DNA from: Mytilus edulis
Taxonomy: Eukaryota
Length of the DNA: 64,000 nt
Assembly: GCF_963676685.1 (NCBI RefSeq)
Contig: NC_092353.1
Coordinates: forward strand, 48,980,001 to 49,044,000
Direction: 5' to 3'
Position numbers and translations under genes: made by a program. The notes under the pieces were generated by a model that saw nothing but the letters and a program-made list of their open reading frames with translations, made no database searches and was not told the origin of the DNA. Shown piece by piece: positions 1,091-47,694 of this stretch (positions within the stretch are counted from its first letter, which is position 1; each line of letters starts with the position of its first letter).

Positions 1091-1848
1091 AAAAGAGAAA
1101 AGAGGGAGTATACAATTGGCGAATTTAGACCATAGCTCAAAAGAAAAAAAAAACCACAATGACCCAAAACAAGAACGACGAAAAAGACAAAAAAGAAAAA
1201 GCGGTAGAAAGATTCGCAATGGTACACGTATAAACACAAGTCGAAATTGAAAGCAACGTTCAATTCTATCATTCCATGTAAAACACTTTTCTTGGTAGGG
1301 GGGACTAAATACAGAACAATCAATATTATCCAAAATATCAAAAAAGTAAAACGTATATTTTAATAAAACGCATTTGACATACAAGTCAAACAACGGATGT
1401 TCTTGAAACCTGTGGACTACCAATAACGACTCACAAATATATATTAGGACTCGCAAGCGCGATGGTACTCCTAACCGATATGGTCATGCTGAAGTGCGAT
1501 GGTTAACACGGCGAAGTGTGATAATATAACGAGTATATCTTCAAATTAAGTTGATTTAAAGCAAACGAATAGACAACACTAGAAGCAATACAAATGTATG
1601 ACATGTATAAGAAATAATGTTTTTTTAGCTGTTGCTTTCCAATTATATTTCTATCTTCTGATTTTTAATTGAAACGTGTGGTTAGATTTATAATTCATAA
1701 CCATTTGAACAGAAATACATTTAGTATTTCATCTTTGTAATTTAATATCGTTATTATTGATATTTTAGATTTTAACAAGATAAGAACGAAGGAACATATG
1801 ATTTTGCCTTTTTAGCCAACTTAATAACAGCTTTGTAAAATTGTTCAA

Positions 1849-2188
1849 ATGGACAAGATGTCGAAAGCAGAACCAAAAATATATTTGAACAACATCTTTG
1901 TTAACGGGCCAACAGATGATGATGTGTACGAAGAATGTTTCGATACAGAAAATCAATATGATTATGAGGAAGTTTCCGTTATCGCCATAACAAATCAACT
2001 TGATGTCGATATTCCAGACAATATGCCAAAGAATCAGTCAATAAAAAAAGATAACAGTCAGAGCAAAAAGAAGCACCCGCATTTGCGGCATATGTTTTTT
2101 ATTTGTGGCTTCGTGATCATGTTAGTAGCATCAAACGGCCTGACATTCATTATCACAAAAGATATATTGTCTGAAGACAAATCAAATA
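1849..2188 (+). CDS. Gene 1 first coding exon: cytoplasmic tail plus signal-anchor TM
   Basis: MDKMSKAEPKIYLNNIF...VYEECF...YDYEEV...KKKHPHLRH followed by hydrophobic MFFICGFVIMLVASNGLTFIIT. Acceptor ttttAG at 1767-1768; donor GTGAGT at 2189. Confidence 0.8.
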
Positions 2189-5100
2189 GTGAGTATGATT
2201 AAGTATGTACTAGTATGCTGTCATCCCTGTTTTCAGAACTGAGTTTTGTGTCAATGATATCAACTGTACTATATAGCTGAACTGTTCGTAAAAATTGTGA
2301 AGGTGGTTCAAAATGTTAGCTGCAGTAGTAGTAAAATTGAGAATGGAAATGGGGAATGTGCCTAAGAGACAACAACCCGACCATAGAAAAAAAACAACAG
2401 CAGAAGGTCACCAACAGGTCTTCAATGTAGCGAGAAATTCCCGCACCCGGAGGCGTCCTTCAGTTGGCCCCTAAACAAATATATACTAGTTCAGTGATAA
2501 TGAACGTCATACTAATTTCCAAATTGTACACAAAAAACTTAAATTAAAATAATACAAGACTAACAAAGGCAAGAGGCTCCTGACTTGGGACAGGCGCAAA
2601 AATGCGGCGGGGTTAAACATGTTTGTGAGATCTCAACCCTCCCCCTATACCTCTAGCCAATGTAGAAAAGTAAAAGTACTTGTTTTAGTTCCCATTTATT
2701 TATTTTGGAAAAAGTTAGTTCCAATAACATTGATCGGCGGTGATTATATCACATACAGATTGTATGTTATAAATTTGAGAAATATATATTTTGATGAACA
2801 CTGCGCTGATTTGATTTAAAACTTGAACAGTTTGAAATTCTTTGTATGTACTAAAATTCTTGCTATCACCTTGCATTTTATAGTTCTAAAAATTAATCTC
2901 TATTAAAAATTAAATAATTCATATAACCTCTAATTGATTTAATATTTTTATGCACGATAAATAACATCACGGGTACCAAGATTCTTTATTGTTACAAAAC
3001 ACGCTAGCACTCGGTTTGCGTGTTCCATCTAACTCCTTTTCTTACCTTCTAAGTTTGATATTTTCATTATTCATTTTTCCATGTCAGGAACATGTGTTTA
3101 TTCTAAATAATCTTTACATCTTTACTTTATTATCAATGTATACCCCTACATTAGGATCATGTAATAATGTCTCTGTATTGTAGCGATAAATTAACAAAAA
3201 TTCACACTATTTCTTCTAAAATTAAAATGCAGGCAATGACGATTTTATTAACACATATTATAGATTGAACTTTAAAAAATAAATTACCAAATCGTCACCA
3301 AAAAAATATCAGACGAATATAATTTTGAGGTAAATTTTAGTTTGCCTTTGTTTCAGGGAAAATAATGACCTCACACAGGTCAATATTTTATGCCTTAGAG
3401 CATATTTCTATTAAACATGTTATCGCCTGAATTGATTCTTCGAAAAAATAACTTATCGTTCTGAAAAGAAAAAAAACCCCAGATAGGTATATTATGTTCA
3501 GAATAACTATTATGTTAATTAATTTGTGTTGCTCAAATATTAGTGACACCTTGTACTGGATGTGGGGTGTTAAATGGCACATTCCACTGTTTATGCGAAT
3601 GCGGCTTTTCTGGAAGTCTCTGTGAAGGTAAGCATCAAACATCATTAAAGTCATATGAATCGATGACTGGTAAAAATTGATGTTAATGCAATTCTTGAAT
3701 TGATTCATGTATATATATTAAACTTCTGTGCACGATTTTATCTTTTTATACGTATCTATTTTGTATAATCGTAAACAAGTATTCACTTGTTCAGTGTTGT
3801 GAAAATATATCAGCTCAAAAATGGTCGTGTTTAAAGCCGATGTATACCGATTGTCACATTTGTAGACAATCAACAAAGAAGCATGTATATTCAGATAAGC
3901 ACGTATACATGTACAATAAAATATAGTTTAGTTCAGTGACGGGGCGATGTTTACGTTTATTGACTCTCTCTGCAAATTTTGTTTTCCCCTTTGCACTTGC
4001 GTAACTGCGATCCCGGGATAATTATGAGAATGGTCAGACCTAGGTAACTGAATACGAAAGACATGTAGGCGAATTGTTGTCTGGAAGCCAAAAAAGTGAA
4101 AAAGGAAATGTCTTATAAGTTTGAACTAATGGAAGACTTTAAAAAAAAGTGTTGTACACGAGTCATGGTTAGTTTTACAATTAAAAAACTAGACATTTGG
4201 TTATAAAAAAAACCATATACATATTTTTTTTCAATTTGAAGTTTCATTTTGATTTAACGTTAGTATAGTATATTGCTACATTAGTGTAAAATAATAGAGA
4301 AAAAACAAACAAGCTTATAGAAAACCGGAATCAGCTGAAACAAAACATTTTGCGTTCTAAATTAAACATAAATTAGTTGTTTTTGATAATGTGTAAAAAC
4401 TTAAAGAAAACCTTCAAGGGGTTGCGATGGTGTTCGTATTTTCTTCGTTATTGAACAATACCTTAAACATAACGTTCATTAACCTACGCTAAAACTATTC
4501 TGTTTCTCCCTAATATCGTCATAAGTTCGTGCTACTAAACATGAATTCTTGTAATCTTCAGGTTTAATATTTTTTAAATGAAATATTATCTGTATCACAT
4601 CATTCAACCTAACTTCGATTTTTAAAGGGGTAGCGACTGTGTTGTCATTGATGTTATATATCTTGCGTCACTACGCTCCTTGGGGTATAAATGTCATCAA
4701 ACTTTGTCCACCTATGACATAATCTGCGATAGACAACAAACTATGTAACGGCCTTATATGATATCAGCATATTGACCATTACTTTCAAAACAATTAAACC
4801 AAACTTCAATTTCAAAATGTAAGCTGATATCATAATATCAAATTTTTAAGTCTTTGTTTTTCCAGTTTAATGAAATAAATATTTAATCGAATCTGTTTTT
4901 AATTTTTCCATTAATACTAGTATGAAAAACATTTTGAATTTCAGTGACACCTTGTACTGGACGTAAATGTTTCAACGGAGGCTCATGTGAGGTGTTGGAT
5001 GAAATGTTTCACTGCTCATGCAAACCTGGGTTTTCTGGACATCTGTGTGAAGGTAATTCTTAGATATCATTAAGGAAGATAAAATGTAGTGTTCATTTAA

Positions 5101-8100
5101 AAGAATCTTGAGAAAGAGTAGTTACTATACATTCATTAATGTTATACATATCGCGACGATAGGCTCCTCGGATACAAAGGTCACACACATTGTCTCCATG
5201 GCAGAATCTCCGAAAGACAACTAACAATGTAACGGCCTGATATCATATCAGCATATTTACCAATACTTTCTAGACTGGCTTGTTTTAAAATGTAAACTGA
5301 TGTCAGGATATATTTTTTTTTATTCTACGTTTTTTTTTTAAATTTAATGAAATACTAGAAAGGATCAATAACAATCTGTTTTTGATTTTTATTTAAATCT
5401 ATGACAAACATTTTGAATTGAAGTGACACCTTGTACTGGAATAAACTGTTTGAACGGAGGCTCATGTGAGGTGTTGAATGAAATATTTCACTGTTCATGC
5501 GAATCAGGTTTTTCTGGACGTCTCTGTGAAGATAAACCTTTTTGTGTTTATTCTTAGTTTAAAGGAATATTAATGAAATACAAAGAAACAAGAGAATACC
5601 GCAAAAACAACCCGTGCTTTTATTGAAACGAACCGTTGAATAGAAAATAAACTGAATTAGGTTTTTAGCATGTTTTCGCAGCGATACCATTCTTGAGCAA
5701 TATCCAATTGAAAGCTACACAATAGGATTTCATCAAGTTTACGTTTCATCCTTAAATAATACACACGTAAGTAAAGTCAAATTTTGAATGATTCGCCTGA
5801 CCTAATGCGACTTCCTGTAATCTAGTGTTTTGATTAATCTATTTGACTTGCAATACTTATAGAATCCAACGACGAATCTTCGATGTTTGAAAATGCAGCT
5901 ACTCATAAAATTTTAATTGATGTTATATCTCACGTTGGTGCGCTCATCGGGATGAAAAGAGTGAAATCACAAATATATCGAACTCCGAAAAAAGTTCAAA
6001 ACGGAAAGTCAAACCCATCAATCGAATAAATAACAAATGTCATAATCCTGTAGTGTAAACAAATGTAACAAAACTTTATACCTACACGTGAAGGAATATT
6101 TGATAGATAACGAAATATGTGACGACATGAATTTGTATCCGTACACTAAGCACTACTTTCAAGACAATTGAACCAAACGTTTCATATTAAAAATGTATAC
6201 TGAATCATGATATCAAATTGTATATTCTATGTTATTTTCAAATTAATGAAATACTTTAAATGTTATAAATCCACCTAATGAAATCTGTTTTTCCTTTTTT
6301 CTATAATTATGACGAACACTTGAAATTTCAGTCACACCTTGTACTGGATTTAAGTGCTTGAATAGAGGCTCGTGTGAGGTGTTGAATGGCACATTTCACT
6401 GTGCATGTGATTCTGGGTTTTCCGGACGCCGGTGTGAAAACGGTAAGGCTTTCGTAGCAATAAAACGTGTAAAGGTTTCAGAAGCGATATCTCAGACAAG
6501 CTTGTTAAAACGTGCCAATACGGTTTTTAAAAGAAGTTCTGAACTTGCTTATGTCTATACTAACATCCGTCAGTCCTTATAAGCTCTCCCATGGGTACAA
6601 TTCTTTCCAGAATAGCTTTACCGGCTAGGACGCATCCCGGGTACCAAGATTCCTTATTGTTACACAAAACACGGTAGCACTCGGTTTGCGTGTTCCATCT
6701 AACTCTTTTTCTTACCTTCTAATAGATATAGGAAGATGTGGTGTGAGTGCCAATGAGACAACTCTCCATACAAATAACAATTTAAAAAGTAAACCATTAT
6801 AGGTTAAAGTACGGTCTTCAACACGGAGCCTTAGCTCACACCGAACAACAAGCTATAAAGGGCCCCAAAATTACTAGTGTAAAACCATTCAAACGGGAAA
6901 ACCAACGGTCTAATCTATATAAACAAAACGAGAAACGAGAAACACGTATATATTACATAAACAAACGACAACTAATGTACATCAGATTCCTGACTTAGGA
7001 CAGGTGCAAACATTTGCAGCGGGATTAAACGTTTTAATGGATCCAAACCTTCTCCCTTTTTCTGAAACAATAGCATAACATCACAACAAAGAAAAACATA
7101 CGATAAAATATCAATTGGCAGACTTAACTCAATAAAAAAACGTATGATTAAACAATGAACGAATAAATTTGATCTGCGATATCTGAATACAAATGCACAG
7201 TTAATTAAATATTAGAGACAAACATTCATGACCAAAAAGCTAACAAACAAATTCAAAAACAGGACATGACTGAGAAATATTTAACCAATCAATGTTCACT
7301 TTAGAAAAAACCGGTTTTTTTATAATCTTGAAGTTTATACAAATGTTGTAAGAATAAGTGAAAAATTGAAGATATTACAAATAATCAAAGCTGGTGTACA
7401 GAAAAGATCCGTATAAATAAAAAATAACAAAAAAGCATTATAAACAGTATCAACAGGTCGAATTAACAAGAAAATACGATTTGAGAGTACTCGCAGTTAC
7501 TGACAGCTAGTTAAAAGCCAAAACCAATTAATAATAAAAAATCATGCATCAGAGACTAAAATCGACTAAATGATAATTTCAGTGACAGCTTGTACTGGAC
7601 TTAAGTGTTTGAACGGAGGCTCATGTGGGGTGTTAAATGGCACATTTCACTGTTTATGCGAATCCGGCTTTTCTGGAAGTCTCTGTGAAGGTAAGCATCA
7701 AACATTATTAAAGTCATATGACACGATGACAGGTAAAAATTGATGAATTGATGCAAGTATATATTATAAACCTCTGTGCACGATTTTATCTTTTTATACG
7801 TATCTATTTTGTATAATCGTAAACAAGTATTCACTTGTTCAGTGTTGTGAAAATATGTTAGCTCAAAAATAGTCGTGTTTAAAGCCGAAGTTTACCGATT
7901 GTCACCTTTGTAAACAATCAACAAAGAAGCATGTATATTCAGATAAGCACGTATACATGTACAATAAAATATAGGTTATTTCGGTGACGGAGCGATGTTT
8001 ACGTTTATTGACTCTGTCTGCCAATTTTGTTTTCCGCCTTGCACTTGCGTAACTGCGATCCCCGGAAAATTATGAGAATGGTCAGACCTAGGTAACTGAA

Positions 8101-11100
8101 TACGAAAAACATGTAGGCGAATTGTTATCTGGAAGCCAACAAGTAAAAAAGGAAATGTCTTATAAGTTTGAACTAATGTAAGACTTTTAAAAAAAATCGT
8201 TTGTTCACGAGTCATGGTTTGTTTTACAATAACATATGCATATTTTTTTCAATTTAAAGTTTCATTTTGATTTAACGTTAGTATAGTATATTGCTACATT
8301 AGTGTGAAATAATAGAGAAAAAACAAACAAGCTTATAGAAAACCGGAATCAGCTGAAACAAAACATTTTGCGTTCTAAATTAAACATAAATTAGTTGTTT
8401 TTGATAATGTGTAAAAACTTAAAGAAAACCTTCAAGGGGATGCAATGGTGTTTGTATTTTCTTCGTTATTGAACAAAAACTTAAATATAACGAACATTAA
8501 CCTACGCTAAAACAATACTGTTTCTCCCTAATATCGTCATAAGTTCGTGCTACTAAACATGAATTCTTGGTATCTTCAGGTTTAATATTTTTTTAAATGA
8601 AATATTATCTGTATCACATCATTCAACCTAACTTCGATTTTTGAAGGGGTAGCGGCTGTGTTGTCATTGATGTTATATATCTTGCGTCACTACGCTCCTT
8701 GGGGTATAAATGCCATCAAACTTTGTCCACCTATGACATAATCTGCGATAGACAACAAACTATGTAACGGCCTTATATGATATCAGCATATTGACCATTA
8801 CTTTCAAAACAATTAAACCAAACTTCAATTTCAAAATGTAAGCTGATGTCATAACATCAAATTTTTAAGTCTTTTTTTTCCAGTTTAAGGAAATAAATAT
8901 TTAATCGAATCTGTTTTTAATTTTTCCATTAATATGAAAAACATTTTGAATTTCAGTGACACCTTGTACTGGACGTAATTGTTTGAACGGAGGCTCATGT
9001 GAGGTGTTGGATGAAATGTTTCACTGCTCATGCAAACCTGGGTTTTCTGGACATCTGTGTGAAGGTAATTCTTAGATATCATTAAGGAAGATAAAATATA
9101 GTGTTCATTTAAAAGAATCTTGAGAAAGAGTAGTTACTATACATTCATTAATGTTATACATATCGCGACGATGGGCTCCTCGGATACAAAGGTCACACAC
9201 ATTGTCTCCATGGCAGAATCTCCGAAAGACAACGAACAATGTAACGGCCTGATATCATATCAGCATATTTACCAATACTTTCTAGACTGGCTTGTTTTAA
9301 AATGTAAACTGATGTCAGGATATATTTTTTTTTTATTCTACGTCTTTTTTTTTAAAATTTAATGAAATACTAGAAAGGATCAATAACAATTTGTTTTTGA
9401 TTTTTATTTAAATCTATGACAATCATTTTGAATTGAAGTGACACCTTGTACTGGAATTAACTGTTTGAACGGAGGCTCATGTGAGGTGTTGAATGAAATA
9501 TTTCACTGTTCATGCAAACCTGGGTTTTCTGGACATCTGTGTGAAGGTACAATTTTTTGTTTTTATTCTTAGTTTAAAGGAATATTAATGAAATACAAAG
9601 AAACAAGAGAATACCACAAAAACAACCCGTACTTTTATTGAAACGAACCGTTTTGGTAGAAAATAAACTGAATTAGGTTTTTAGCATGTTTTCGCAGCGA
9701 TACCATTCTTGAGCAATATCCAATTGAAAGCTACACAATAGGATTTCATCAAGTTTACGTTTTATCCTTAAATAATACACACGTAAGTAAAGTCAAATTT
9801 TGAATGATTCGCCTGACCTAATGCGACTTCCTGTAATCTAGTGTTTTGATTAATCTATTTGACTTGCAATACTTATAGAATCCAACGACGAATCTTCGAT
9901 GTTTGAAAATGCAGCTACTCATAAAATTTTAACTGATGTTATATTTCACGTTGGTGCGCTCATCGGGATGAGTGAAATAACAAATATACCGAACTCCTAA
10001 AAAAATTCAAAACGGAAAGTCAAACCCATCAATCGAATAAATAACAACTGTCATAATCCTGTAGTGTAAACAAATGTAACAAAACTTTATACCTACACGT
10101 CATGTAATATTCGAAAGATAACGAAATATGTGACGACATGAATTTGTATCCGTACACTAAACACTACTTTCAAGACAATTGAACCAAACGTTTCATATTA
10201 AAAATGTATACTGAATCATGATATCAAATTGTATATTCTATGTTATTTTCAAATTTAATGAAATACTTGAAATGTTATAAATCCACCTAATGAAATCTGT
10301 TTTTCCTTTTTTCTATAATTATGACGAACACTTGAAATTTCAGTCACACCTTGTACTGGATTTAACTGCTTGAACAGAGGCTCGTGTGAGGTGTTGAATG
10401 GCACATTTCACTGTGCCTGTGATTCTGGGTTTTCCGGACTCCGGTGTGAAAACGGTATGGCTTTCGTAGCGATAAAATGTGTAAAGGTTTCAGAACCGAT
10501 ATCTCAGACAAGCTTGTTAAAATGTGCCAATACGGTTTTTTAAAAGAAGTTCTGAACTTACTTATGTCTATACTGCCATCCGTCAGTTCTTGTAAGCTCT
10601 CTTATGGGTACAATTCTTTCCAGAATTATTATCATGAACATACCAAATGTTAAGTTCTGCAATTTGTCGAAGGATTCCAAAAATCATTGCCGATTAACTA
10701 TTTTTAAGCTGTTATTCCTTTCAGAAATTTAGATTATTTGGAAAAATCTTTGTTAGAGCTTTCAATAGATATATGAAGATATGGTACGAGTGCCAATGAG
10801 ACAACTATCCATCCAAGTCTCAATTTGTAAAAGTAAACCATTTTAGATTAAAGTACTGTCTTAATTTACCACGAAGCATTGGCTCGCACGAAACAGCAAG
10901 CTATGAAAGGCCACTACTAATGGTAAACCATTCAAACGGGAAAACAAACGGTATAATCTAAATAAAAACGAGAAACGAGAAATTCTTCTGAAACACATCA
11001 ACAAACTACATAACATAGAACACTGGCAGGTGCAAACAAATGCATCGCGTTTAAACGTTTTATTACATGTAGGTACCAACCCCCACCCTTATCTGAAACA

Positions 11101-13831
11101 ATAGTGTAACATCGAAAGACACACTATTAACTATCAAAGGAAATGGCTCAACTCTATCAAAAGAAATTTTGCAAGCCTACATATATGGTAAGAAGTTCAA
11201 CTATATCGATTATTTGTCAATAGTGTAAAGCAATAATTCGTCTAAAAATATGGATTCAGCGCTGATTTACAAATTTTTACATGAAATATGTCTCTTAGAA
11301 ATATTTATTCAAATATCAGTTGTAGTGAACTATTTAGTTTTAAGGAATCATTTTGCATTGAAATTGAAAGACTCTAACTTCTGATAATTCTAATGAAATT
11401 TTTATTTCACAAATGACTAAAGATATTTTCACAATACTTTTTTTATAGACTTGATACACAGAATTAGCCAGATAAACGAACGTGTACTTACATGATCGAC
11501 TCTCTAGAAAGTAGAGACCCGAGACCACTCAATGTTTTGGGTGGTGTTGCTAAGTATTCTTTTCTAGGTTACGTCTTAAAGACTTATTTGTCCTTTGCTT
11601 GTTTTTTGTTTTTTTGCAATGGCATTGTAAGTTCCATTTTTAATTTCTGAGTTAGGTATATTCCGCTATGTCTTATACATATAATAAAGTTGTAAATAAA
11701 CTAATCTAGAGAGTTCTTTACGTTGAAAGGATGATATAATGTATGTACGTCGGTTTTTATAAATTTAAACGCAGTTCTTTAATCGTTTAGAAAATTACAA
11801 CTTGACATTACATACAAACGAAAAGTATGTAGCTGATAATATAAAAGATTAATTGCAGAAGTTGGACCATGCTTTTCAAATCCCTGTTTGAATTTTGGTT
11901 CATGTAGAGCATCTTGTAATACTTATACCGTTACTGTCTAAATGGAACCAAAGGAAGTCGTTGTCAAGGTGAGTAGAACACACAAAAAAAAAAAATACAA
12001 AAAAAGGATAAAAGTAGAAATGTATACAAAACCAAACAAAAACCGATTAATGAATAAGAAGACAATATCAATATGATCTCGCGTGGTATTAACACCATAA
12101 ATATGCAGAGCTTGATAATCAAATAAATATGTATAACATATGACCTTATGATGAACCGTCATTCATTTATGGTATTGCAGCTGCGAAGCCCTTTTTTCAG
12201 GAAAAAACCCCATAAAAATACTGATTGCAAATGAAAATAACACTTCTAAAGACTAGAGAATATGTATTCCCCATATAGTATATGTCAACGTTGTGTCTTT
12301 TAACACCTTATATTCTTTACATACAGATTTATTACATGAAATAATAACATCCCCTGGATATCCGTCGAACTACAACGACAACACGTATAAACTATGGCAT
12401 ATTGATGTTGGACTTTCAAATATTATCCGAATAACGTTTACTCAGTTTGAACTTGAAGACGAATATGATTTAGTAAAAGTAAGTTAGTTGCTCTATAATA
12501 TTTCTTTCCACCATATAACGAAAGTAATATCATTCTTAAAATGTATATCCTTATAACACATTTCAACACAGTATTCAAATAAAGGAAACAATGAATACAA
12601 TGTTTGTCGGCAAAACCATCCCAATATTTAAAATACTATGCATGAAACTTAGTTGAATTAAAAAAAAAGGGGGGTAATCGTTACCATCAAAGCTTTAAAA
12701 GTACTAAAAAATGTACAACCTTTACCTTATCCGTCAAACGATTTTTTATGCATCATATTTTATATATAAGATATAAGGTAGGTTTGGTCATCGACAAGAT
12801 CGTAACAGACGGAGGATTTTAAATCTATCCTGCTTTTTGAAATACGATAAAACAAGAATATGTGTGGGAAAATAAAAAAAAACCAATCACTGAACATTTC
12901 TCACATATCTAAAATCAATCGTAAAAAAATAATAAAAAAGGAAACTAATAAACTTGAAACAAATAGTTGACATCAAACACCTCCCTTTCCTTGTAAAAAA
13001 TACGTTAAAAAATACCCGGAAAAGTACAATACAAATTATATAATAAAGATAATAGGATGTATCCTAAGTATTCACTGACATCTTCGTCTGTGGGAGAAAT
13101 GTTTCATCTCATATATAGGTATACAGAATTAACTTTATCAAGTCAACGCTATAACTTTTAATACACACATCTTAACTTTCCAATTGGAGATATATATCCA
13201 TTGTTTTCTTTTCCATGTATCCGATATTTGTATTTTATTGTTTTTTTCTAATGTTAGATGACGTTGATTTTCTTTTTTCGGTCGTTGATTGTATATCATT
13301 AAAGTTTAATGATATAATTTAACGATGTTCCATTTGTATTATATAAAAACTGTAGGATTACAGAACAAACAGAAATGAGATAAAAAAAAAAAAAAAAAAG
13401 GCAACAGAAGTATACCGCTGTTCAAAATGCATAAATCGATTAGGAGAAAACAAACCCGGGTTATATACTAAAACAGACCACTGAAGTGCAACAAAAAACA
13501 AACAACAATGCAACGTACATATAAATGAGTTATAAGATAACAACTACTATGTTCCTGACTTGGTACAGGACATTTTAATAAAAAAAGGTGGGTTGATCCT
13601 GATTTTGTGGCTAGCTAAACCTCTTTGCTTTATGGCTATGTTTAATTTACTGCCAAAATGACAACATCACATAACGGGAGTACAGCACAAAAAATGCAAG
13701 AACACGAAAGACAGCGATATACACTAATAAATAAAATAATAGTATATTTCGACATGTTAACAACATAATGACAACGAATAACTAAAATGAATTTAAGGAC
13801 AGTATGCAAAACCAGTGTAATAGAATTACGA

Positions 13832-13879
<48 letters not shown>

Positions 13880-14705
13880 CTTTATTAAGCTGATAAAAGA
13901 TATTCTTGATCCGTAATATATTTTGATTTGTAGATACCTAAACATCATCGTACTACCTTCAAGGATGTGTCAAACATTTACTGTATGATCATTTTCAATG
14001 TATAATTAGTCCCTTGATAACAGAGTGGGACAGTTAACAAAGGATAATTAACGTTTTTATTTAAGTAAATAACATATATATGTGACAAACAAAACAAATT
14101 AACAGTAAAAAGTAAAATAATTAAAGTACCGTACTCCGAGCAAAATATAAACGAAAATTACATTAACAACTTGTGTAAGCAAACATATCAAATGAACGGA
14201 AAACAAGTGTCATATTCCTGATTTGATACATGTATTTCATTATGTAGGAACTGATGTACAAAACCTGGTTTTATATCTAGCTTAACCTTTCTCTTATATG
14301 ACAGTCGTACAAAATTAAATTATCACAAACTAACTATAACCACTTGACTGTTATAACTTTGTTGCATTCGCTATTTAAAATCTGTGTACCCCGATTTTGT
14401 TTTTTGTTCATGGATTTATGAGTTTTGAACAGCGGTATACTACTGTTGCCTTTATTTACTGGATTTTGATTATATTACAAATGATAACGTTTACTGGTCC
14501 TCGTATATATTATGTTTTATTCAAGATATATAATGGACAGTCAATTAGATGTGGTTCGTTGTCAAATTACACAGGAACAATCACAAGAACAATTTATCCG
14601 ATGGAATTAGCATCCACGGGCAGATACATGACAATATTATTCACATCTGATAATTCTATTCCCAAATCGGGATTTCGTGCAGTTATATATAAAACAAGTA
14701 ACTAG
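1849..14705 (+). CDS. Multi-exon type II membrane protein: Tyr-motif cytoplasmic tail - TM - 7(-8) EGF-like repeats - CUB (gene 1)
   Basis: Exons with AG/GT boundaries and compatible phases: 1849-2188 (ends phase 1); EGF exons 3544-3627, 4945-5052, [5424-5531 donor lost], 6332-6442, 7583-7690, 8957-9064, 9439-9546, 10344-10454 (all phase 1-1); CUB exons 12327-12478 (1-0) and 14526-14705 (stop TAG). AATAAA at 14711. Confidence 0.8.
2334..2674 (-). mobile_element. Solo 3'-end fragment of the Naiad/PLE element
   Basis: Near-identical to 17906-18246 (aaattgagaatggaaatggggaatgtg...). Confidence 0.85.
3544..3627 (+). CDS. EGF-like exon 1 (shortened variant)
   Basis: TPCTGCGVLNGTFHCLCECGFSGSLCE. 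tattAG acceptor, GTAAGC donor. 24-nt in-frame deletion relative to 7583-7690. Confidence 0.6.
4945..5052 (+). CDS. EGF-like exon 2
   Basis: TPCTGRKCFNGGSCEVLDEMFHCSCKPGFSGHLCE; tttcAG...GTAATT; 108 nt. Confidence 0.85.
5424..5531 (+). pseudogene. EGF-like exon 3, probable pseudo-exon
   Basis: TPCTGINCLNGGSCEVLNEIFHCSCESGFSGRLCE is intact, but the donor reads ATAAAC instead of GT and the acceptor (gaAG) is weak. Confidence 0.65.
6332..6442 (+). CDS. EGF-like exon 4
   Basis: TPCTGFKCLNRGSCEVLNGTFHCACDSGFSGRRCEN; tttcAG...GTAAGG; 111 nt. Confidence 0.85.
6721..7570. repeat. Dispersed repeat family B
   Basis: Starts aatagatataggaagatgtggtgtgagtgccaatgagacaactctcc. Related copies at ~10764-11160, ~24153-24292, ~56427-56800, and inverted at ~45915-46020, ~51600-51735, ~60110-60172, ~61965-62395. 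Confidence 0.8.
7583..7690 (+). CDS. EGF-like exon 5 (duplicate of exon 1)
   Basis: TACTGLKCLNGGSCGVLNGTFHCLCESGFSGSLCE; tttcAG...GTAAGC. Confidence 0.85.
8957..9064 (+). CDS. EGF-like exon 6 (duplicate of exon 2)
   Basis: TPCTGRNCLNGGSCEVLDEMFHCSCKPGFSGHLCE; tttcAG...GTAATT. Confidence 0.85.
9439..9546 (+). CDS. EGF-like exon 7 (duplicate of exon 3)
   Basis: TPCTGINCLNGGSCEVLNEIFHCSCKPGFSGHLCE; weak gaAG acceptor, GTACAA donor. Confidence 0.65.
10344..10454 (+). CDS. EGF-like exon 8 (duplicate of exon 4)
   Basis: TPCTGFNCLNRGSCEVLNGTFHCACDSGFSGLRCEN; tttcAG...GTATGG. Confidence 0.85.
12327..12478 (+). CDS. CUB domain, N-terminal exon
   Basis: IITSPGYPSNYNDNTYKLWHIDV...IRITFTQFELEDEYDLVK matches the CUB motifs (SPGYP.NY, W.I, F..F.LE, D.V). 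acAG...GTAAGT. Confidence 0.85.
13837..13874. repeat. (GT)n microsatellite
   Basis: About 19 uninterrupted TG units. Confidence 0.95.
14526..14705 (+). CDS. CUB domain, C-terminal (last) exon
   Basis: IYNGQS...STGRYMTILFTSDNSIPKSGFRAVIYKTSN* (CUB S.G..M.I.F.SD.S...GF motif). Phase 0 matches the upstream exon. Confidence 0.85.
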   Translation: MYNGQSIRCGSLSNYTGTITRTIYPMELASTGRYMTILFTSDNSIPKSGFRAVIYKTSN

Positions 14706-25400: not shown

Positions 25401-26822
25401 ATTTTTAAGGAGTGTAATTTAATCGGCTTTGAACAAAAAAATAATATCAAATGTGTTTTTAAATGAATATTCATGGTCCGTTATTATAACATTGATAAAG
25501 ATTATAATAATGCATAAATTGTGCGGTGCACATATTTATAATTCTGTTTATATAACTGCTTGAGAATTGAAATATTTGTCGAGATTGCTTATACAGAAAA
25601 TTTAGTTTGAAGACGAAAAGGTAAAACTTTTATGATCAATATGTTCTTTTCTGTTTTTTATTATCAATTACCCATTGGTTTGCGTATGTTTGTAATCATA
25701 TATTTTGTCTTTCTATTGATAGGACTGAAATCTTCAATAATGCATTAAAGATAAATACGTGACAATCTTTATACAGAGCGATACTCTGTACATACATATA
25801 TCTTAATAATGTCCTTTTATCTTCCTGAATTAATTCAAGTTTTCTAATTAATGACAAATTTCCAAATGCGTATGTTATATTCTAACATATGATTCATAAT
25901 CTCGGTTAATTAAAAGTCTTTACTTATTTTTTTTTCATTTTACAATAAGGAAATTAAACACGGAAATGTTTTCGGAAATGATATTCACTTTTTAATTTAA
26001 TTCATATTTTAACAATGTTAGGTGGCTTTCAGAACATTAATAATGTTAAATTTATACTGTTATAAGTCTGAAAGGGTGTTTGCAATTTTGATTACGAGCA
26101 CATTTTACATAAACTGAAGGTTAGTAAAAATTTCAGAATAAAAACAAGAAATATTTTCCTTCATTGGAGAATAATGAATTAATATATATTTAGTGAGAAA
26201 AAAAAAACTACAACTGACGATATTATTAAAACATATTTTTTTGTTGAAAACTGTAAGCTTGTATTTGTATGAACTATAGTTTTAGCAAATTAACTGGATA
26301 ACACTGATTTCATAATTGTATAACAATAGATTACCTTAAAAAATAGGATAAATTTAATATTTCGTATGACGAATAGAAACATTGGTTGATGAATTGATTT
26401 TTGTTTTTCACAGTGAAAGCACAAAAGGAGTGCATCGAGATTTCAGTTATTAAACCTCATCTATTTTAATTTACATTTTTTGAGTGTTCGTGAAATCTAT
26501 TCCTTGTTGTTCACCAGTTGTGCCATGGTAGACTTAAGACTTATAACTTATTCAACAATGTTCTGGATGATGAGATTCAAACACCGCTTTAGTCATGTTC
26601 AATATCGTCTGAACAGTTACATGCTAATTAAAATATTCATAAGAGATTTATAAATAAGCATTGATGATTAAACTTTTCCATTTTCATTTCCGTGTTCCAG
26701 AATGTTTTGTTTTGTTTTTACTTCTTTTAGAGTTAGGTCATAACCTGTTTCCAAAACTATTGTTATTGTGCAATCAACCTTATTTTCATTTTTTAGTAAC
26801 ACGAATAACGGCCATTGCAAGA

Positions 26823-27171
26823 ATGTCAAGAGCGCAACAGAACACGTATGTTAATAATATCTTCGATGCAGGAAAAACAGAACCGGAAAATATTTTAGAA
26901 TACGAAGAATTTCTTGCTCCTGTTGACAAATCCATTTATGATGAACTATCTTCAAAGCAAGAGAAAGGCGCCCCAAGTAATGATTCCGTCATTATGAACT
27001 CAATGCATAGTGAGCTGTCTAAACAATCGGACAATTCAATTCTTCAAAAGAAATTAGCTCTAATCAGGCCAATGTTTCTTATACTACTTTGTATTCCGAT
27101 GACAGCGTTAGTTACAGCCATTGCCACTTTCTTTGCAACAAAAAATAATCTCTCTGATAAGAGTGGCATGC
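26823..27171 (+). CDS. Gene 2 first coding exon: cytoplasmic tail plus TM
   Basis: [14 protein letters not shown]...LEYEEF...SIYDEL...QKKLALIR followed by hydrophobic [24 protein letters not shown]. Acceptor ttttAG at 26795-96. Homologous to 1849-2188. Confidence 0.8.
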
Positions 27172-30100
27172 GTAAGTATATAACATTATTTGTTTTATCC
27201 GGGTAGAAAACCTTGTGCTTCCAAAAGATCAACATTTTATAAAAAAAAAATTAACTTATCAATCATAGTTTGTGTCAACACAGGCATGCTGACTATTCTG
27301 CTGATCATAAAACAAACAAAAGTTGGAATGAAAACGATTACAATCAAGGAAATTCAAAACGTTTTTGAAACTGAGTGTTAAAACGGTTACTGCTATACAT
27401 GCATCATCGAATTCGAACATAACCAAAACTTTAAGGATTAAACATCAGGTTCGCAAAATCACCATGAAAATACAAGCAACATTTAAAATTGTTGAACAGT
27501 AATTGATACATAATTCTTGTATTTGACTATTTTAAAAGATTGTTAAACATAGCTAGGAATTTCAAGTTCAAAATTACTGTGGCAAAGTTAACACTAGATG
27601 AATTCAGATATTCTATTTACATGTAGGTATTTTGTAATTTACCGTTTAAACGCTTCTCCAAATTTACGCAACCCTTGTTTTCCAAAGTTAAATTTCAGCG
27701 TGTCTACGGAATGTACATCTTTAGCAATGAAAATATGATATACATCATCAAACGAAAACCATGGAATTGCAGGCTCCGCACTAAGGACAGGCACATATAA
27801 AATATGGCGGGTTTACACTAGTTTAAAAGCGCCAAGCAAAACGATTCATTTCATTTCATAGCACTAGTCGATAAAGTAACTGTAAGTAAGTGAGTTAGTA
27901 AATCTTTTATTTAAAAACGACCATTAACATACCTTCAAACATAATCTTTGATGAGGTATTCAAGAAAATAAAACATAGGTGAGAATAAATACATCAAGGC
28001 AAGTGCAGGTCGCGAAATGTATCATCATTTTTTCAAAAGTTAAGGTTTATGTACTGACATTATTTGTAAAATATCCTAATAACTATTTAACGTTGCAAAG
28101 ACTTTACGTATTCCTAAACTTTAGATATTTAGCTTTGTGGGTTTAAGGCATACCAAGACGGCAATTGGTTATCGATGTATATAATCCAAAAATCAATAAG
28201 TAAGATACACAAGACAGTGACAAACAGAAACTAAAGGAGTCACATGAACCCCAAAAAGGAACAAGATAGGTGCGTTGATAGGACAAGCGCGTCCGACGTA
28301 TCAAAATTATAAATTCAGTTTTTATTTCACATACAGTAATATTAAATTGTGCATTTAAATTTTTACAGAATGCAGTAGCGCATGTATCAACGATACAGAA
28401 GGCAGACTCCAACAAGAACTAGATAAGGCAATGATTTGTAGATACAATGAAACAACAGACAGTCCGGCTTGTTCTTCGGCATTCTGCCCTGGTATGTTTG
28501 TATGACTGATATAAAAGATAAGCGTATGCAGAGTTCCTTTACCATCCTATGATAATTGTTGAAATATTTCGTCCGTTTTGTACGTAGCATATCCTTCAAC
28601 ATAGATGGATATCGAAGATACAGCGGATATACTATATCATGTAGATCTAGGTGCTATGATATGTAGCGGAGTATTAATGATCGTTGGTAGTAAAAATAAT
28701 TTAATCGCACCATTTCAAACTGTCGCGATCATTTTGTTTATACATAGTGTATTTACTCCATCTCACGTTGTATAGATCTTTCTCATTTACAATTTAGTGT
28801 TTCAAAAATTTAAGTTAAGAAACATGGTGTCTTGCTTAAGATTGGGTTTTAAAATAGTGGTGACATAACCACACTTACTTCGTAAATGTATATTCGTTAA
28901 TACTCGATTGAATTGCTAAGGAACTTTTTTATTCTTTTTCTTTAATTTATAAATACACTCATCAGAATTACCAAGATTGAAATTTTGTAATTGCCTCAGA
29001 CGTGCGTTCCGTCATTAAAGACTCACCAGTGACTAAAGGTAAAAAGGCCAAATAAAGTATCAAGTCAAAGAGCATTCAGTATAAAAACTTCATTGGTTAT
29101 CATTTCCATCAGACCCCTTACAGGGTTCACAATACATTTAATGTAAAGAAATACAAATATAAATCAATTTAGATAACGAAAACGATTGTTTTTTTTTTCT
29201 TCAAACTTTGACGGAAAAGATCACATGTTGGCATTCCTTCACGATAGTTTAATAACAGCCATTGTCAGAAGAGAAATTAAACTAAACCGGAAATTTATAA
29301 TGAGACAATCATAAATTAAATGACAGCGATGAGGTAGGTCACACACATTTACTCATTATAGACCTTTCAAGACTGTTTTCCCGGTAATCTTTTGTCTTCG
29401 ATATGTACAAATAACCAAATGTGTCATTTGATATAAATGGTAATCATTTTCATATGCGACAATGGTAGAATTTTCAGATAATGCATTTTCATAATAAAAA
29501 ATTCGTTGAAAAAAAAACAGAATTGTTAACACTTCTGAGTGAATAAAATGCGAAACACATATACTGCCGTAACGTTTGTAAGGGTACTCCTTGGTGTTAG
29601 AACAGGGGCGGTTAGCAATTTTTTAAAGAGGGAATTCCTTACGCAGGAGAAAGAAGGGGTTCAAACCATATGTCGCCATTGAATGCATTGGCCGTCATAA
29701 AAAGAGGGGGTTGCAACCCCCTGAACCCTTCACTTGATCCGTCACTGTGGACGTTAAGATATAGTTTGAATAAAGAACACCCTTGCTTAATTTTGCAAAG
29801 AAAATTATTCTAAAAAAAAGTTTCCTCCAACTTTCTTTTTATTTTTGCCATTATAGCCGACATATGCATTTATTTCTGACTATTTCTCTGTTTCTTTTTA
29901 ACGAAGCAACTGAAAACATCTTACTTTTATCTTGGATTTAAACACTAGGTGACGCCGCTTTCTTTTTTTAAATTAGACTAAGATCACTATATTTTTTATT
30001 CAATATCAGCTGTGGAAACGTATTTTTGCATTTGGCCATAAAGCAACGATGTTTATCTATGTCAGAAGGTACATCGCATTAAAGATTCATGTCACAAGTT

Positions 30101-42100: not shown

Positions 42101-43652
42101 GGTTGGTTGGTTGGTTGGTTGGTTGGTTGAAATTCAAACACACATAAAACTGTTTAAATAGTGCCAAAACCACATAATTTGATGACCTTGACCTTTGACC
42201 TTGTGACCTTCGTCAAGGTCATTGCTCTACAAGGTCATTGCAAAAGACCCTATGGGTCAAGGACCTTTGTTTAAGAGTTTTGCCTAAATATGGCTTTTTA
42301 AAAACCATCGATGGGAGTTATGTCCCTTACATGATGGTAAAATCAATATAGTCATAATGTAAAAAAGTTGCCCCTTGAAGTACTTAACATTTTTCACTGC
42401 TTAAATTTTCTGTATCTATAACCATTCAAGAATTATAGGGAAATCAAAGACATATGAAAATCTAAAATATGACCTTGACCTTTGACCTTGACCTAATTTT
42501 CTAAGTTAGGAATCAGGGGACTCAAATAAAAACATTCCAAGGTTATACGGTTAACGGTTTATGAGTTAAAAAAACATACCGACAAATTTATTCCGTAAAG
42601 ATAGATAACTCCTATAAAATTTCATCGAATCGCTTCGATCCAAATTTGCCAAAATTTTCTGAGGATGTAACGAACAATTTGTAAAAAGAATTTTGTCGCT
42701 ATCTTTTTTTGTTACGAAGGAGATGCACACACATGATAAACAGTGAATAGGGAGATAACTCTTACAGAGAAAATTGTTCGTCTTAGCAGGGTGAAATTTA
42801 AAAGCGCATAAACTATACGATACAATATGAGAAATATCTAAGCGACATATTGCGAAACAAACATTTATCGCAAGAACAAAAGTTGGCGGAAAAAAAAAAA
42901 TAATAATAATAATAATCAGAACAAATACAATAAGTCTTTCCACAGAAAAGTGGAAAGACTTAATTAAATGCAGTAATATATTAAACATTGATTCAATTTC
43001 AGGTAATGGTGATTATTTAAGACTGCGCTTCAGTCGAACAGAATTGTACTATTCCTACTTCATGTCAGATGATGAAACGACCTTAAGTAATTTTAAAACA
43101 GTTGAAACCTCAAAGAGTGTATCAGCACGATTATCGACTTACAGGGGGACGATTTCTGACACATGTTTAGGTGAAGATGCTTTGATTTATTATGAAGTAA
43201 ACTATACATATTCCATACGCTCTAAACTTGCCTCTTTTAGTACAAAAGATATATTGGAAGTTGGCATTGCTGAACGTTCAAATGTTGATAAATATAGCGA
43301 TGCTGGTGCTTCAGCAAGTGGATGGTCATTCTACATGTTTTATAGAGGAGTATGGTTTTCTCGTGCTAGACGATTTGTATACATAAATGCAAGGCATAAC
43401 GGAAGTAGCAAAACAAGTCAAATACTGTTTACAACTTATGCAGGTGAACAGTTACACGGCCAATTAAAAATTTTCATTAATACCCGTAGAAATGAGTTTA
43501 CTGTTATGCATGATGATTTGAAAGTTTATGTTTTTGAAGATGTTAAATCAAACGAAACGCTTTGTCCGGTATTTGGAGTATACAATCCTGACCATGTTAA
43601 CGTTCAACTAAAGATATTAAATTCTTTTAATTTTTCTATGTATCCCTGGTGA
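26823..43652 (+). CDS. Type II membrane protein: Tyr-motif tail - TM - Cys-rich stalk - B30.2/SPRY-like domain (gene 2)
   Basis: Exons 26823-27171 (ends phase 1, GTAAGT), 28369-28491 (1-1) and 43003-43652 (phase 1 start, stop TGA) join in frame. The last join, across a TE-filled 14.5 kb intron, is inferred. Confidence 0.65.
28369..28491 (+). CDS. Gene 2 exon 2: Cys-rich stalk
   Basis: ttttacAG | [40 protein letters not shown] | GTATGT. 123 nt, open, phase 1-1. Confidence 0.7.
31437..32245. mobile_element. Foldback/palindromic MITE, Tc1/mariner-like ends, with a 148 bp insertion
   Basis: TA|CAGTG...CACTG|TA ends. The ~326 bp arms meet at TTC/GAA (31919/31920) with no spacer. Insertion 31691-31838 is flanked by an ATTACCATA duplication. 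Confidence 0.85.
32250..33610 (-). mobile_element. Two tandem decayed Naiad/PLE 3'-end copies
   Basis: ~32250-32850 and ~32927-33610 align to 17906-18850. The first has a degenerate SECIS (~32733-32790). The second lacks that segment but keeps RT C-terminal remnants. Confidence 0.75.
34654..36198 (+). pseudogene. THAP-domain DDE_Tnp_4 (Harbinger/IS5-like) transposase, disrupted
   Basis: THAP C2CH (CAVNGC...W...VCSNHF), HTH (LLLVLMKLK...DLARRFGIS), DDE motifs (IIDCAE, GRASD, MADRGF, RIHVE). Frameshifts at ~34967, ~35190 and ~36020; stops at 35771 and ~36079. Confidence 0.88.
37401..38930 (-). pseudogene. SWIM zinc finger + YqaJ/lambda-exonuclease-like protein, disrupted
   Basis: WADDMRVWP...KSLQSYNY; C..SHVGALLW; TKGQS...W...R..ITAS; HG..QE; SSPDG; FEVKCP; YYMQIQL. 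Several frameshifts and stops. Confidence 0.82.
40515..42130. repeat. Compound satellite array (~9 units of ~115-200 bp with (ATTG)n/(GTTG)n and GGTTAAACACGTT subrepeats)
   Basis: Core ggatcccgtatttaacacatgaaacggaaacatgc at ~40633, 40811, 40997, 41114, 41313, 41481, 41651, 41836, 42007. Confidence 0.92.
42170..42963 (+). mobile_element. Helentron/DINE-like non-autonomous element 3' part
   Basis: TGACCTTGACC motifs, an (AAT)n tract, then a 13 bp stem hairpin taagtctttccac-agaaaa-gtggaaagactta (42931-42962). Related decayed copy at ~55400-56137. Confidence 0.55.
43003..43652 (+). CDS. B30.2/SPRY-like beta-sandwich domain exon
   Basis: tttcAG acceptor. [23 protein letters not shown]...YRGTISD...YYEV...LEVGIA...GWSF...LKIFIN...LCPVFGV resembles the PRY/SPRY pattern (YxEV, xVGI, LxPxF). 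650 nt with no stop. Confidence 0.7.
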
Positions 43653-46715: not shown

Positions 46716-47014
46716 TCGTGGCCAAAATATTTGAAATCCAAAGCTTATATAAAAGATGAAGAGCTATAATCCAAACGTTCCAAAAAGTATAGCCAAATCC
46801 GTGAAAGGAATACTCTTGAACTGAGGCTAACATTATCAAGATGCTCGATTTCATGATTCACAACATATTTGTTATCAAAAGGACAAGGACAGTATCAAAA
46901 GGCTTTTGAACATTTCAAATGGCCTTGTCTATATTAAAGTATTCTTTTATAGGATATGTAAATTTATTTGAAATTACATCAATTGAAACAAGTACTATGG
47001 GCGATAAAAATGGT

Positions 47015-47660
47015 TGATATATGCAGTACCTTTATCATTTACTCACCGAAAACCAAAAAATGTTTTACAAATGCTGCACTTATATCATTTACTCACCCAA
47101 AACCAAAAAATGTTTTACATATGCTGCACACATATCATTTACTTACCGAAAACAAAAATATGTTTTATATATGCTGTACCTTTATCATTTACTCACCGAA
47201 AAACCAAAAAATGTTTGATATATGCTGCACCTTTATCATTAACTCACCGAAAACCAAAAACATGTTTCATACATGCTACACTTTTATCATTTACTCACCG
47301 AAAACCAAAACATGTTTTACATATGTTGCACACATATCATTTACTCACCGAAAACCTCAAAATGTTTTATATATACTGCACCTTTATCATTTACTCACCG
47401 AAAACCGAAAACTGTTTTATATATGCTGCAACTTTATCATTTACTCACCAAAAACCAAAAATTGTTTTATATATCCTGCACATTTATCATTTACTCACCG
47501 AAAACCAAAAAATGTTTTAAATATGCTGCACACATATTATTTACTTACCAAAAACCAAAAAAAATGTTTTATATATGCTGTACCTTTATCATTTACTCAC
47601 CGAAAACCAAAAAAATGTTTGATATATGCAGCACCTTTATCATTTACTCACCGAATACCT
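47015..47660. repeat. ~50 bp minisatellite, about 13 copies
   Basis: Unit is approximately atatgctgcacctttatcatttactcaccgaaaaccaaaaaatgttttat. Confidence 0.95.
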
Positions 47661-47694
47661 AAAACGAAACAAAATCATTTAGAAATTTGATTTT

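What the first reader, a model, noticed from the sequence alone, without database searches (positions are those of the whole stretch)
1879..1974. Conserved YxN plus ITAM-like dual-Tyr spacing in both cytoplasmic tails
Seen: gene 1 has YLNN...YEEC-x8-YEEV. Gene 2 (~26847-26948) has YVNN...YEEF-x8-YDEL, and SIYDEL fits the ITIM consensus (S/I/V/L)xYxx(L/V/I). The 8-residue spacer is identical although the sequence between the Tyr motifs has diverged. Knowledge: pYxN binds Grb2-type SH2 domains; YxxL-x6-8-YxxL binds tandem SH2 proteins (Syk/Shark, SHP). Inference: SH2-coupled signalling, possibly an activating/inhibitory pair.
Basis: partly seen in the sequence, partly recalled or inferred. Interest (0 to 1): 0.7.

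Follow-up and report, generated by a model that had tools for sequence, protein, structure and literature searches.

The report
Mussel receptors sharing one signalling tail
Both genes belong to a family of membrane proteins, found here only in Mytilus mussels, that reuse one exon for the membrane anchor and predicted inner tail under many different outer domains; the tail keeps a likely uptake signal and a spaced tyrosine pair that likely recruits the immune kinase Syk, although the pair departs from the textbook motif.

Summary
Both genes open with the same tail-plus-membrane exon. It defines a family whose named members are all Mytilus (50 tails, 22 clusters), with varied ectodomains: EGF-CUB (gene 1), TSP1 remnant plus SPRY-like fold (gene 2), EGF-chitin-binding, EGF-IgGFc-binding, TSP1-WAP, TSP1-ShK.

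'YxN' is really [FY]xNxx[FY] (16 of 22 clusters; Tyr becomes Phe in 3 of 22). That matches the published Numb-PTB sorting motif YxNxxF better than a Grb2 site.

An acidic Tyr pair 10-12 apart occurs in 17 of 22 representatives. It is indel-free in the two genes' clades, and in one paralogue the 12-residue unit is repeated about six times. It is not a canonical ITAM: the first +3 residue is mostly Cys or Val, and 1 of 22 clusters fits strictly.

The ITIM-like SxYxxL is common in the family (11 of 22), and the two genes have unrelated ectodomains, so an activating/inhibitory pair is unsupported.

Best reading: type II receptors with a variant ITAM that likely docks Syk, plus a likely Numb sorting signal. 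Both partners are in the genome; binding is untested. Gene 1 is spliced in contigs of three studies.

The parts
1769..2188 (+). Gene 1 first coding exon: ATG at 1849 or 1858, N-terminal tail, single TM, phase-1 donor
   Evidence: Contigs of runs X1 and X2 lie on 1769-2188 and X7 on 1787-2188, all continuing in other sequence; in-frame stop just before 1828; donor GTGAGT
1882..1899 (+). YLNNIF, a YxNxxF motif (predicted PTB/Numb sorting signal)
   Evidence: motif definition PMC11494200, PMC6912373 (passages)
1927..1938 (+). First half-site YEEC (Tyr27)
1963..1974 (+). Second half-site YEEV (Tyr39), 12 residues after Tyr27; not ITIM-like (Tyr at -2)
2092..2154 (+). Gene 1 transmembrane segment (predicted)
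   Evidence: hydropathy 2.26; net charge +4 before, -1 after within the exon
3544..11968 (+). Nine EGF-type phase-1 exons: 3544-3627 (24 nt short), 4945-5052, 5424-5531 (no GT donor), about 6332, about 7583, 8957-9064, 9439-9546, about 10344, 11859-11968 (110 nt, frameshifted in this sequence); eight of them lie in a roughly 4.01-kb duplication
12327..12478 (+). Gene 1 CUB domain, first exon
   Evidence: Pfam CUB E 1.7e-07; joint 12478 to 14526 GT..AG in X1, X2, X7, absent in X15
14526..14705 (+). Gene 1 CUB domain, last exon with stop
26797..27171 (+). Gene 2 first coding exon: ATG 26823, tail, TM (27072-27134), phase-1 donor; acceptor predicted from sequence
   Evidence: 100% identical to the start of P0002
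26847..26864 (+). YVNNIF, an exact YVNxxF motif
   Evidence: YVNXXF in PMC4587863 (passage)
26901..26912 (+). First half-site YEEF (YEEC in orthologues)
26931..26948 (+). SIYDEL: second half-site, ITIM-like
28369..28491 (+). Gene 2 exon 2: remnant of a TSP1 module (lacks the Trp-rich start)
   Evidence: aligns with the TSP1 domains of P0005-P0007; no Pfam TSP1 hit by itself
43003..43652 (+). Gene 2 last exon: SPRY/B30.2-like beta-sandwich, predicted extracellular
   Evidence: P0002 158-373 at 100%; Atlas SPRY 0.94; best structural match TRIM67 PRYSPRY Z 13.1, rmsd 3.1, 141 aligned; no Pfam SPRY hit

Best explanation
The two genes are members of a Mytilus family of predicted type II membrane receptors whose shared first exon encodes a tail with two separately conserved signals: a YxNxxF motif that likely binds the endocytic adaptor Numb, and an acidic tyrosine pair 12 residues apart that likely acts as a variant ITAM and docks Syk once phosphorylated. 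Ligands are not known; the ectodomains are of kinds used for adhesion and pattern recognition.
For: Family and ectodomains. Constraint. Tyr pair with an acidic first half-site in 17 of 22 representatives; spacing 12 (12), 11 (1), 10 (4); second +3 L/I/V in 15 of 17; first +3 C 9, V 5, L 2, F 1. In clade C, 6 clusters fit Yxx[LIV]-x6-8-Yxx[LIV] and one (P0039) is a strict ITAM. L027 repeats a 36-bp unit (one Tyr site each) 6.3 times; L002 repeats an 87-bp unit 3.8 times. N-motif: Tyr 17, Phe 3, His 1, Lys 1; Asn 20; +5 Phe/Tyr 16 of 22. It is kept in copies that lost the pair (L003, L039, P0035, P0040). Numb binds YxNxxF/NXX[YF] unphosphorylated (PMC11494200, PMC6912373, PMC3507883; passages). 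Partners: Numb, Syk N-SH2 (E 6e-18). Oyster precedent for ITAM/hemITAM-Syk: PMC6994640, PMC12842671 (passages). Topology: no signal peptide, single TM, disulfide modules C-terminal, 7 sequons after the TM against 1 in the tail of P0002.
Against: No binding, phosphorylation or localisation data. The strict ITAM consensus fails in both window genes and in 21 of 22 clusters; a search for YxxC with ITAM and Syk listed 10 of 375 papers, none holding the term YxxC. The pair is absent in 5 of 22 representatives, and single losses occur (L018 keeps only the first Tyr; P0008, P0022, P0038 only the second), so the two sites are not strictly coupled. The +5 aromatic is missing in 6 of 22 (including L002, L005, L006, L010), where YxN often remains, which leaves room for Grb2. 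The charge bias across the TM is clear for gene 1 but weak or reversed in many members. Shuffle controls overstate significance, because patterns were chosen after seeing related sequences. Gene 1's last EGF exon is frameshifted in this sequence.
Confidence: 0.45

Rival explanations
1. All three motifs are sorting signals: YxNxxF for a PTB adaptor and YxxPhi for AP-2. The proteins would be endocytic or scavenger receptors with little kinase signalling.
For: Yxx[LIVMF] in 20 of 22 clusters; YxxPhi-AP-2 and YxNxxF-Numb are documented (PMC6912373 passages); type II endocytic lectins use such tails (recalled).
Against: The most constrained block is YEEC (codon positions 1+2 identity 0.82), which is not YxxPhi; fixed spacing and tandem amplification of Tyr units are not needed for AP-2.
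Confidence: 0.2
2. The tyrosines are independent docking sites for single SH2 domains (Src-family pYEEI type, Nck, PLC-gamma-like), or only the second acts as a hemITAM in dimers; the spacing reflects a 12-residue repeat origin rather than a tandem-SH2 ruler.
For: Y[DE][DEQ][LIVM] in 17 of 22 clusters resembles pYEEI (PMC3507883 passage); the repeat period in L027 equals the spacing; hemITAM needs one YxxL (PMC5932189 passage); several members keep only the second site.
Against: No indel between the sites in 10 of 10 clade A/B representatives although the spacer sequence is as diverged as the rest of the tail; clade C spacing varies only within 10-12 in members that keep the pair.
Confidence: 0.2
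3. The family is mainly inhibitory: SxYxxL/V recruits SHP2, with gene 1 an activating counterpart.
For: ITIM-like pattern in 11 of 22 clusters; SHP2 gene present.
Against: A shuffled gene 2 tail gives an ITIM match 14% of the time; gene 1's close relatives carry the same pattern; the ectodomains of genes 1 and 2 are unrelated; acidic +1/+2 residues suit Src/Syk-type SH2 better than SHP (recalled).
Confidence: 0.1
4. The motifs are neutral leftovers of common descent, or the N-terminus is outside (N-out, with a cytosolic SPRY as in butyrophilins).
For: The tails are homologous; SPRY domains are normally cytosolic (recalled); charge bias is weak in gene 2 (+2 against +1).
Against: Codon-position contrast; EGF, CUB, TSP1, WAP and chitin-binding modules follow the same TM; a TSP1 module sits between TM and SPRY-like domain; the Asn is followed by Ser at +2 (a sequon) in only 8 of 22, so it is not kept as a glycosylation site.
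Confidence: 0.05

Closest known systems
Vertebrate type II C-type lectin receptors with Tyr motifs (Dectin-1, CLEC-2 hemITAM; DCIR ITIM; PMC5932189, passages)
   Same: Predicted N-terminal cytoplasmic tail with Tyr-based motifs, single TM, clustered paralogues, likely Syk coupling
   Different: No lectin domain in any member found; two Tyr sites with Cys/Val at the first +3; extra YxNxxF; ectodomains vary widely under one tail
Oyster CgIgR (ITAM EGDYTELGQCDPETPYEKL; PMC6994640, passages) and CgCLec-HTM (hemITAM; PMC12842671, passage)
   Same: Bivalve receptors reported to signal through CgSyk; CgIgR also has Tyr-to-Tyr spacing 12
   Different: Those have C-terminal tails and canonical YxxL halves; no oyster homologue of this tail appeared or 50
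Numb cargoes with YxNxxF (NPC1L1 YVNHSF, EAAT3, ABCG2, Sanpodo YTNPAF; PMC6912373, PMC11494200, PMC4587863, passages)
   Same: Same six-residue pattern in a cytoplasmic terminus; gene 2 is an exact YVNxxF
   Different: Those are multi-pass transporters or Notch regulators with no sequence relation; binding here is untested
B30.2/PRYSPRY domains of TRIMs and butyrophilins (gene 2 last exon)
   Same: Best fold matches are PRYSPRY domains (Z 13.1, 12.4, 11.9); Atlas features give SPRY
   Different: No Pfam SPRY hit; a legume-lectin fold is near in Z (11.9); predicted to lie outside the cell, with several sequons

Membership tests
Canonical ITAM | Two YxxL/I half-sites | tested here: not met
   YEEC/YEEV and YEEF/YDEL; strict match in 1 of 22 clusters (P0039), 1 of 50 tails
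Canonical ITAM | 6-8 residues between half-sites | tested here: met
   8 in both genes; Tyr-Tyr 10-12 in 17 of 22 representatives
Canonical ITAM | D/E three residues before the first Tyr (consensus as quoted in PMC6994640) | tested here: inconclusive
   Asp in gene 1, Ile in gene 2; mixed in the family
Canonical ITAM | Phospho-dependent binding of Syk tandem SH2 | not testable with these tools
   Syk-type SH2 exon exists in the genome; binding needs experiment
ITIM | (S/I/V/L)xYxx(L/V/I) | tested here: met
   Gene 2 SIYDEL yes, gene 1 no; 11 of 22 clusters; 14% by chance in a shuffled gene 2 tail
ITIM | Recruits SHP/SHIP and inhibits | not testable with these tools
   SHP2 gene present
Grb2 SH2 site (pYxN) | Tyr (phosphorylatable) with Asn at +2 | tested here: inconclusive
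   Met in both genes and 17 of 22 clusters, but Tyr is Phe, His or Lys in 5 of 22 representatives while Asn stays
Numb/PTB sorting motif | [FY]xNxx[FY] in a cytoplasmic tail | tested here: met
   Both genes; 16 of 22 clusters, 32 of 50 tails; chance in a shuffled single tail 0.7% and 0.25%
Numb/PTB sorting motif | Binds the Numb PTB domain | not tested
   Numb is in the genome; the complex predictor was not available
Paired activating/inhibitory receptors | Similar ectodomains with opposite tails (recalled) | tested here: not met
   EGF-CUB against TSP1 remnant plus SPRY-like; homologous tails
Type II membrane protein | No signal peptide, one TM, extracellular modules C-terminal | tested here: met
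   (sequence-level only)
Type II C-type lectin receptors | C-type lectin domain | tested here: not met
   No Lectin_C hit in 18 of 18 family proteins scanned
SPRY/B30.2 | PRYSPRY fold and profile match | tested here: inconclusive
   Fold and Atlas point to SPRY; no Pfam hit; model mean pLDDT 49.9, about 60-80 over most of the domain

The most novel reading that the evidence does not exclude
Mussels built a cassette receptor system of their own: one portable exon carrying a Numb sorting signal and a Cys-variant ITAM (YxxC-x8-YxxL) was shuffled onto EGF-CUB, chitin-binding, IgGFc-binding, WAP, ShK and an outward-facing SPRY domain. Signal strength is tuned by multiplying the Tyr unit up to about tenfold or deleting it to make decoys, and the +3 Cys is a new, possibly redox-sensitive, form of the Syk docking code.
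Probability: 0.2. Interest if true: 0.8.

Novelty: new variant of a known kind. Interest (0 to 1): 0.5.

Why it matters
Few Syk-coupled receptors are described in bivalves, and the two found in my searches have C-terminal tails. This family would add at least 15 places in one mussel genome, with natural variants that work as ready-made controls: strict ITAM, Cys variant, amplified array, and copies without the pair. That makes it directly testable whether an invertebrate Syk reads YxxC halves and whether sorting and signalling motifs evolve separately. An extracellular SPRY-like domain on a surface receptor would also be unusual.

Tried and rejected
Gene 2 expression: 4 runs chosen by gene 1 gave no cover of gene 2's exons; no evidence either way. 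No holder was on record as RNA (kinds are guesses). Numb PTB plus tail complex prediction: tool not available, nothing folded. Atlas look-up of gene 1's exon: not available. Pfam finds no family for the tail/TM exon. P0043 (catfish, E 5.7e-04, match over the TM region only) rejected as a false hit. The long in-frame extension upstream of gene 2's ATG (Logan proteins P0010, P0019) is taken as intron, because an acceptor lies at 26796 and paralogues show a similar arrangement. Dropped before counts: P0016, P0019, P0023, P0024, P0033, P0037, P0041, P0042, P0045, P0046 (no TM, truncated or mis-modelled), L009 (same as L008), P0002, P0013, P0036 (same as genomic copies), P0043; the frameshifted copies L028 and L029 were not counted (P0047-P0050 stand for L028). 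A hand-anchored spacing table was not completed; alignment-derived columns were used instead. Pfam scan of 46 of 113 ORFs near two SH2 exons on C12 found only the SH2. Literature: searches listed no paper whose title or abstract start describes this family; most subscription papers are not held and no supplements were read, so a mention in genome-paper tables cannot be excluded. PMC2828966 was not held. Earlier-findings look-ups by place and sequence were empty.

Full report
1. Observation. The motifs are at the stated places: gene 1 YLNNIF, YEEC-x8-YEEV; gene 2 YVNNIF, YEEF-x8-YDEL with SI in front. The window is G000:C10:48980001-49044000. Gene 2's first exon is 100% identical to P0002, which its source names an uncharacterised Mytilus edulis protein.

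2. Gene anatomy. Gene 1: exon 1769-2188 holds the start, tail and TM. An in-frame stop lies just upstream of the ATG inside the exon, so no signal peptide can be added. Nine EGF-type phase-1 exons follow, eight within a roughly 4.01-kb duplication, then a two-exon CUB domain. One EGF exon is 24 nt short, one lacks a GT donor, and the last (11859-11968) is frameshifted; a contig of run X15 matches 11088-12207 without a difference or gap, so this is probably not an assembly slip. Contigs of three runs from three studies (RNA is a guess) end at 2188 and continue elsewhere, and join 12478 to 14526 at GT..AG, which X15 does not. Gene 2: tail/TM exon, a TSP1 remnant (28369-28491) and one last exon (43003-43652). 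The last exon folds as a ConA-like sandwich whose best matches are PRYSPRY domains (TRIM67 Z 13.1, rmsd 3.1, 141 aligned; a legume-lectin domain 11.9; Foldseek mixed; model mean pLDDT 49.9; Atlas SPRY 0.94).

3. Family. Five searches of the genome gave tail/TM exons at 15 or more places on C10, C7, C12, C2 and C14, some frameshifted; counts are lower bounds. Two further EGF-CUB copies lie 59 and 89 kb upstream on the same strand. Profile searches gave 8 and 16 proteins and 26 representatives among 1.84 billion. Every named true hit is Mytilus (10 of the 19 new representatives were looked up); unnamed Logan hits are unplaced. Ectodomains in 18 proteins scanned: EGF-CUB, EGF-IgGFc-binding, EGF with chitin-binding, TSP1 with the SPRY-like domain, TSP1-WAP, TSP1-ShK (weak, below cut-off); no lectin domain. 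Fifty tails fall into 22 clusters at 65% identity and three well-supported clades; genes 1 and 2 sit in different clades, and TSP1-SPRY-like and EGF ectodomains each occur in more than one clade. Rows left out are listed under Tried and rejected.

4. Constraint. In 10 representatives of the two genes' clades, both Tyr and the Asn are kept in 9 of 10, the Cys in 8 of 10, and no gap falls between the Tyr while gaps flank them (repeat-expanded L002 left out). In 7 genomic copies, codon positions 1+2 are 0.73, 0.82 and 0.79 identical in the N-motif and two half-sites, 0.53-0.57 in linker, spacer and distal tail, and 0.65 in the TM; third positions are 0.42-0.56 throughout. Shuffle controls agree but are biased by after-the-fact patterns.

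5. The N-terminal motif. Of 22 representatives: Tyr 17, Phe 3, His 1, Lys 1; Asn at +2 in 20; Phe or Tyr at +5 in 16. One cluster swaps both aromatics (FNNISY). Copies that lost the Tyr pair keep it. Numb is reported to bind YxNxxF in NPC1L1, EAAT3, ABCG2 and Sanpodo (PMC6912373, PMC4587863, PMC11494200: passages; PMC11889595: reference title only), and its PTB domain binds non-phosphorylated NXX[Y/F] (PMC3507883, passages). A Numb gene is in the genome. Against: 6 of 22 lack the +5 aromatic. Grb2 is therefore not excluded but explains less.

6. The tyrosine pair. An acidic pair 10-12 apart is in 17 of 22 representatives; second +3 is L/I/V in 15 of 17; first +3 is Cys 9, Val 5, Leu 2, Phe 1 (for L002 the script took an upstream pair, and its membrane-proximal pair is YxxC-x8-YxxM). 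Strict ITAM 1 of 22 clusters, relaxed 6 of 22 (all clade C), YxxC-x7-8-Yxx[LIVM] 10 of 22, ITIM-like 11 of 22. Gene 2's Phe is Cys in P0001, P0003 and P0010. L027 carries a 36-bp unit 6.3 times and its relative P0032 about 11 such units; L002 carries an 87-bp unit 3.8 times. L003 has lost both Tyr and the Cys. Syk-type (E 6e-18) and SHP2 SH2 exons are in the genome. Oyster CgIgR is reported to recruit CgSyk through an ITAM with the same 12 spacing (PMC6994640, passages), and CgCLec-HTM through a hemITAM (PMC12842671, passage).

7. Topology. No signal peptide, one TM, disulfide-rich modules after it, and 7 sequons after the TM against 1 before it in P0002. The charge rule supports N-in clearly for gene 1 but only weakly across the family. 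Not shown by experiment.

8. Mechanism. Most likely: clustering by ligand, phosphorylation of both Tyr, docking of Syk's tandem SH2 on a variant ITAM, and PTB-dependent uptake through YxNxxF (0.45 for the whole; component odds in Best explanation). Rivals: sorting only (0.2), independent single-SH2 sites or hemITAM (0.2), SHP2 inhibition (0.1), neutral or N-out (0.05). It works like a Dectin/CLEC-2-type or CgIgR-type Syk-coupled receptor; it is not a member of the C-type lectin receptors, and the two window genes fail the strict ITAM test.

9. Novelty. Six paper searches listed no title or abstract start describing the family; databases name members by ectodomain or as uncharacterised. Supplements and most subscription papers were not seen. 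An earlier unreviewed note from another mussel genome describes a similar reusable ITAM exon on lectin receptors; my sequence look-ups did not link it to this family, so it is a lead only. Verdict: a new variant of a known kind, interest 0.5. Recalled and from no call: the ITIM and paired-receptor definitions, SH2 residue preferences beyond pYEEI, and the usual cytosolic location of SPRY domains.

Noticed in passing
window 2400-10600: Recent tandem duplication of about 4.01 kb (92-99% identical) doubling a block of four EGF exons in gene 1; one copy has lost a GT donor and another 24 nt
   Followed up: partly
window 11859-11968: Last EGF exon of gene 1 is frameshifted; contig of X15 agrees with the window, contigs of X2 show gaps in the region, so it may be allelic or skipped
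   Followed up: partly
window 43003-43652: SPRY-like domain predicted outside the cell, missed by Pfam; shared with TSP1-bearing paralogues in another clade
   Followed up: partly
window 34483-36043 (+) and about 37400-38800 (-): THAP domain plus DDE_Tnp_4 (Harbinger-type) transposase remains and a further ORF on the minus strand, inside gene 2's second intron
   Followed up: no
window 18665-20396 (-) and 59025-60568 (+): Broken ORFs that look like reverse-transcriptase retroelements (judged by eye)
   Followed up: no
window 56921-57217 (-): C-type lectin exon (Pfam E 1.7e-08) of a separate gene; other exons not found in a quick scan
   Followed up: partly
window 40500-42130 and 46960-47690: Two satellite-like arrays, the first with strong G skew, the second giving long repetitive ORFs
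   Followed up: no
L027 1685-1910 (G000:C7 near 30870300): Tail with a 36-bp unit repeated 6.3 times, one Tyr-Glu-Glu-Val type site per unit; P0032 has about 11 units
   Followed up: partly
L003 (G000:C10 near 48890623): Neighbouring EGF-CUB copy with intact-looking ectodomain exons that has lost both tyrosines and the Cys but keeps the N-motif: a candidate decoy
   Followed up: partly
L004 1507-1899: Tail with three copies of an 11-residue Pro/Lys/Ser unit after the Tyr pair; copy number differs among P0004, P0012, P0015
   Followed up: no
L005, L006, L010, L018 (G000:C10 52.1-52.9 Mb): Cluster of clade B copies with a third conserved Tyr site (HDY followed by hydrophobic residues) and EGF/chitin-binding ectodomains; the +5 Phe of the N-motif is lost here
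   Followed up: no
L081, L086, L095, L096, L100, L104, L107, L110 (G000:C12 29-38 Mb, C6): At least eight related SH2 exons whose best match among six SH2 exons compared is the genome's PLC-gamma N-SH2: an apparent lineage expansion of SH2 proteins, possible readers of such tails
   Followed up: partly
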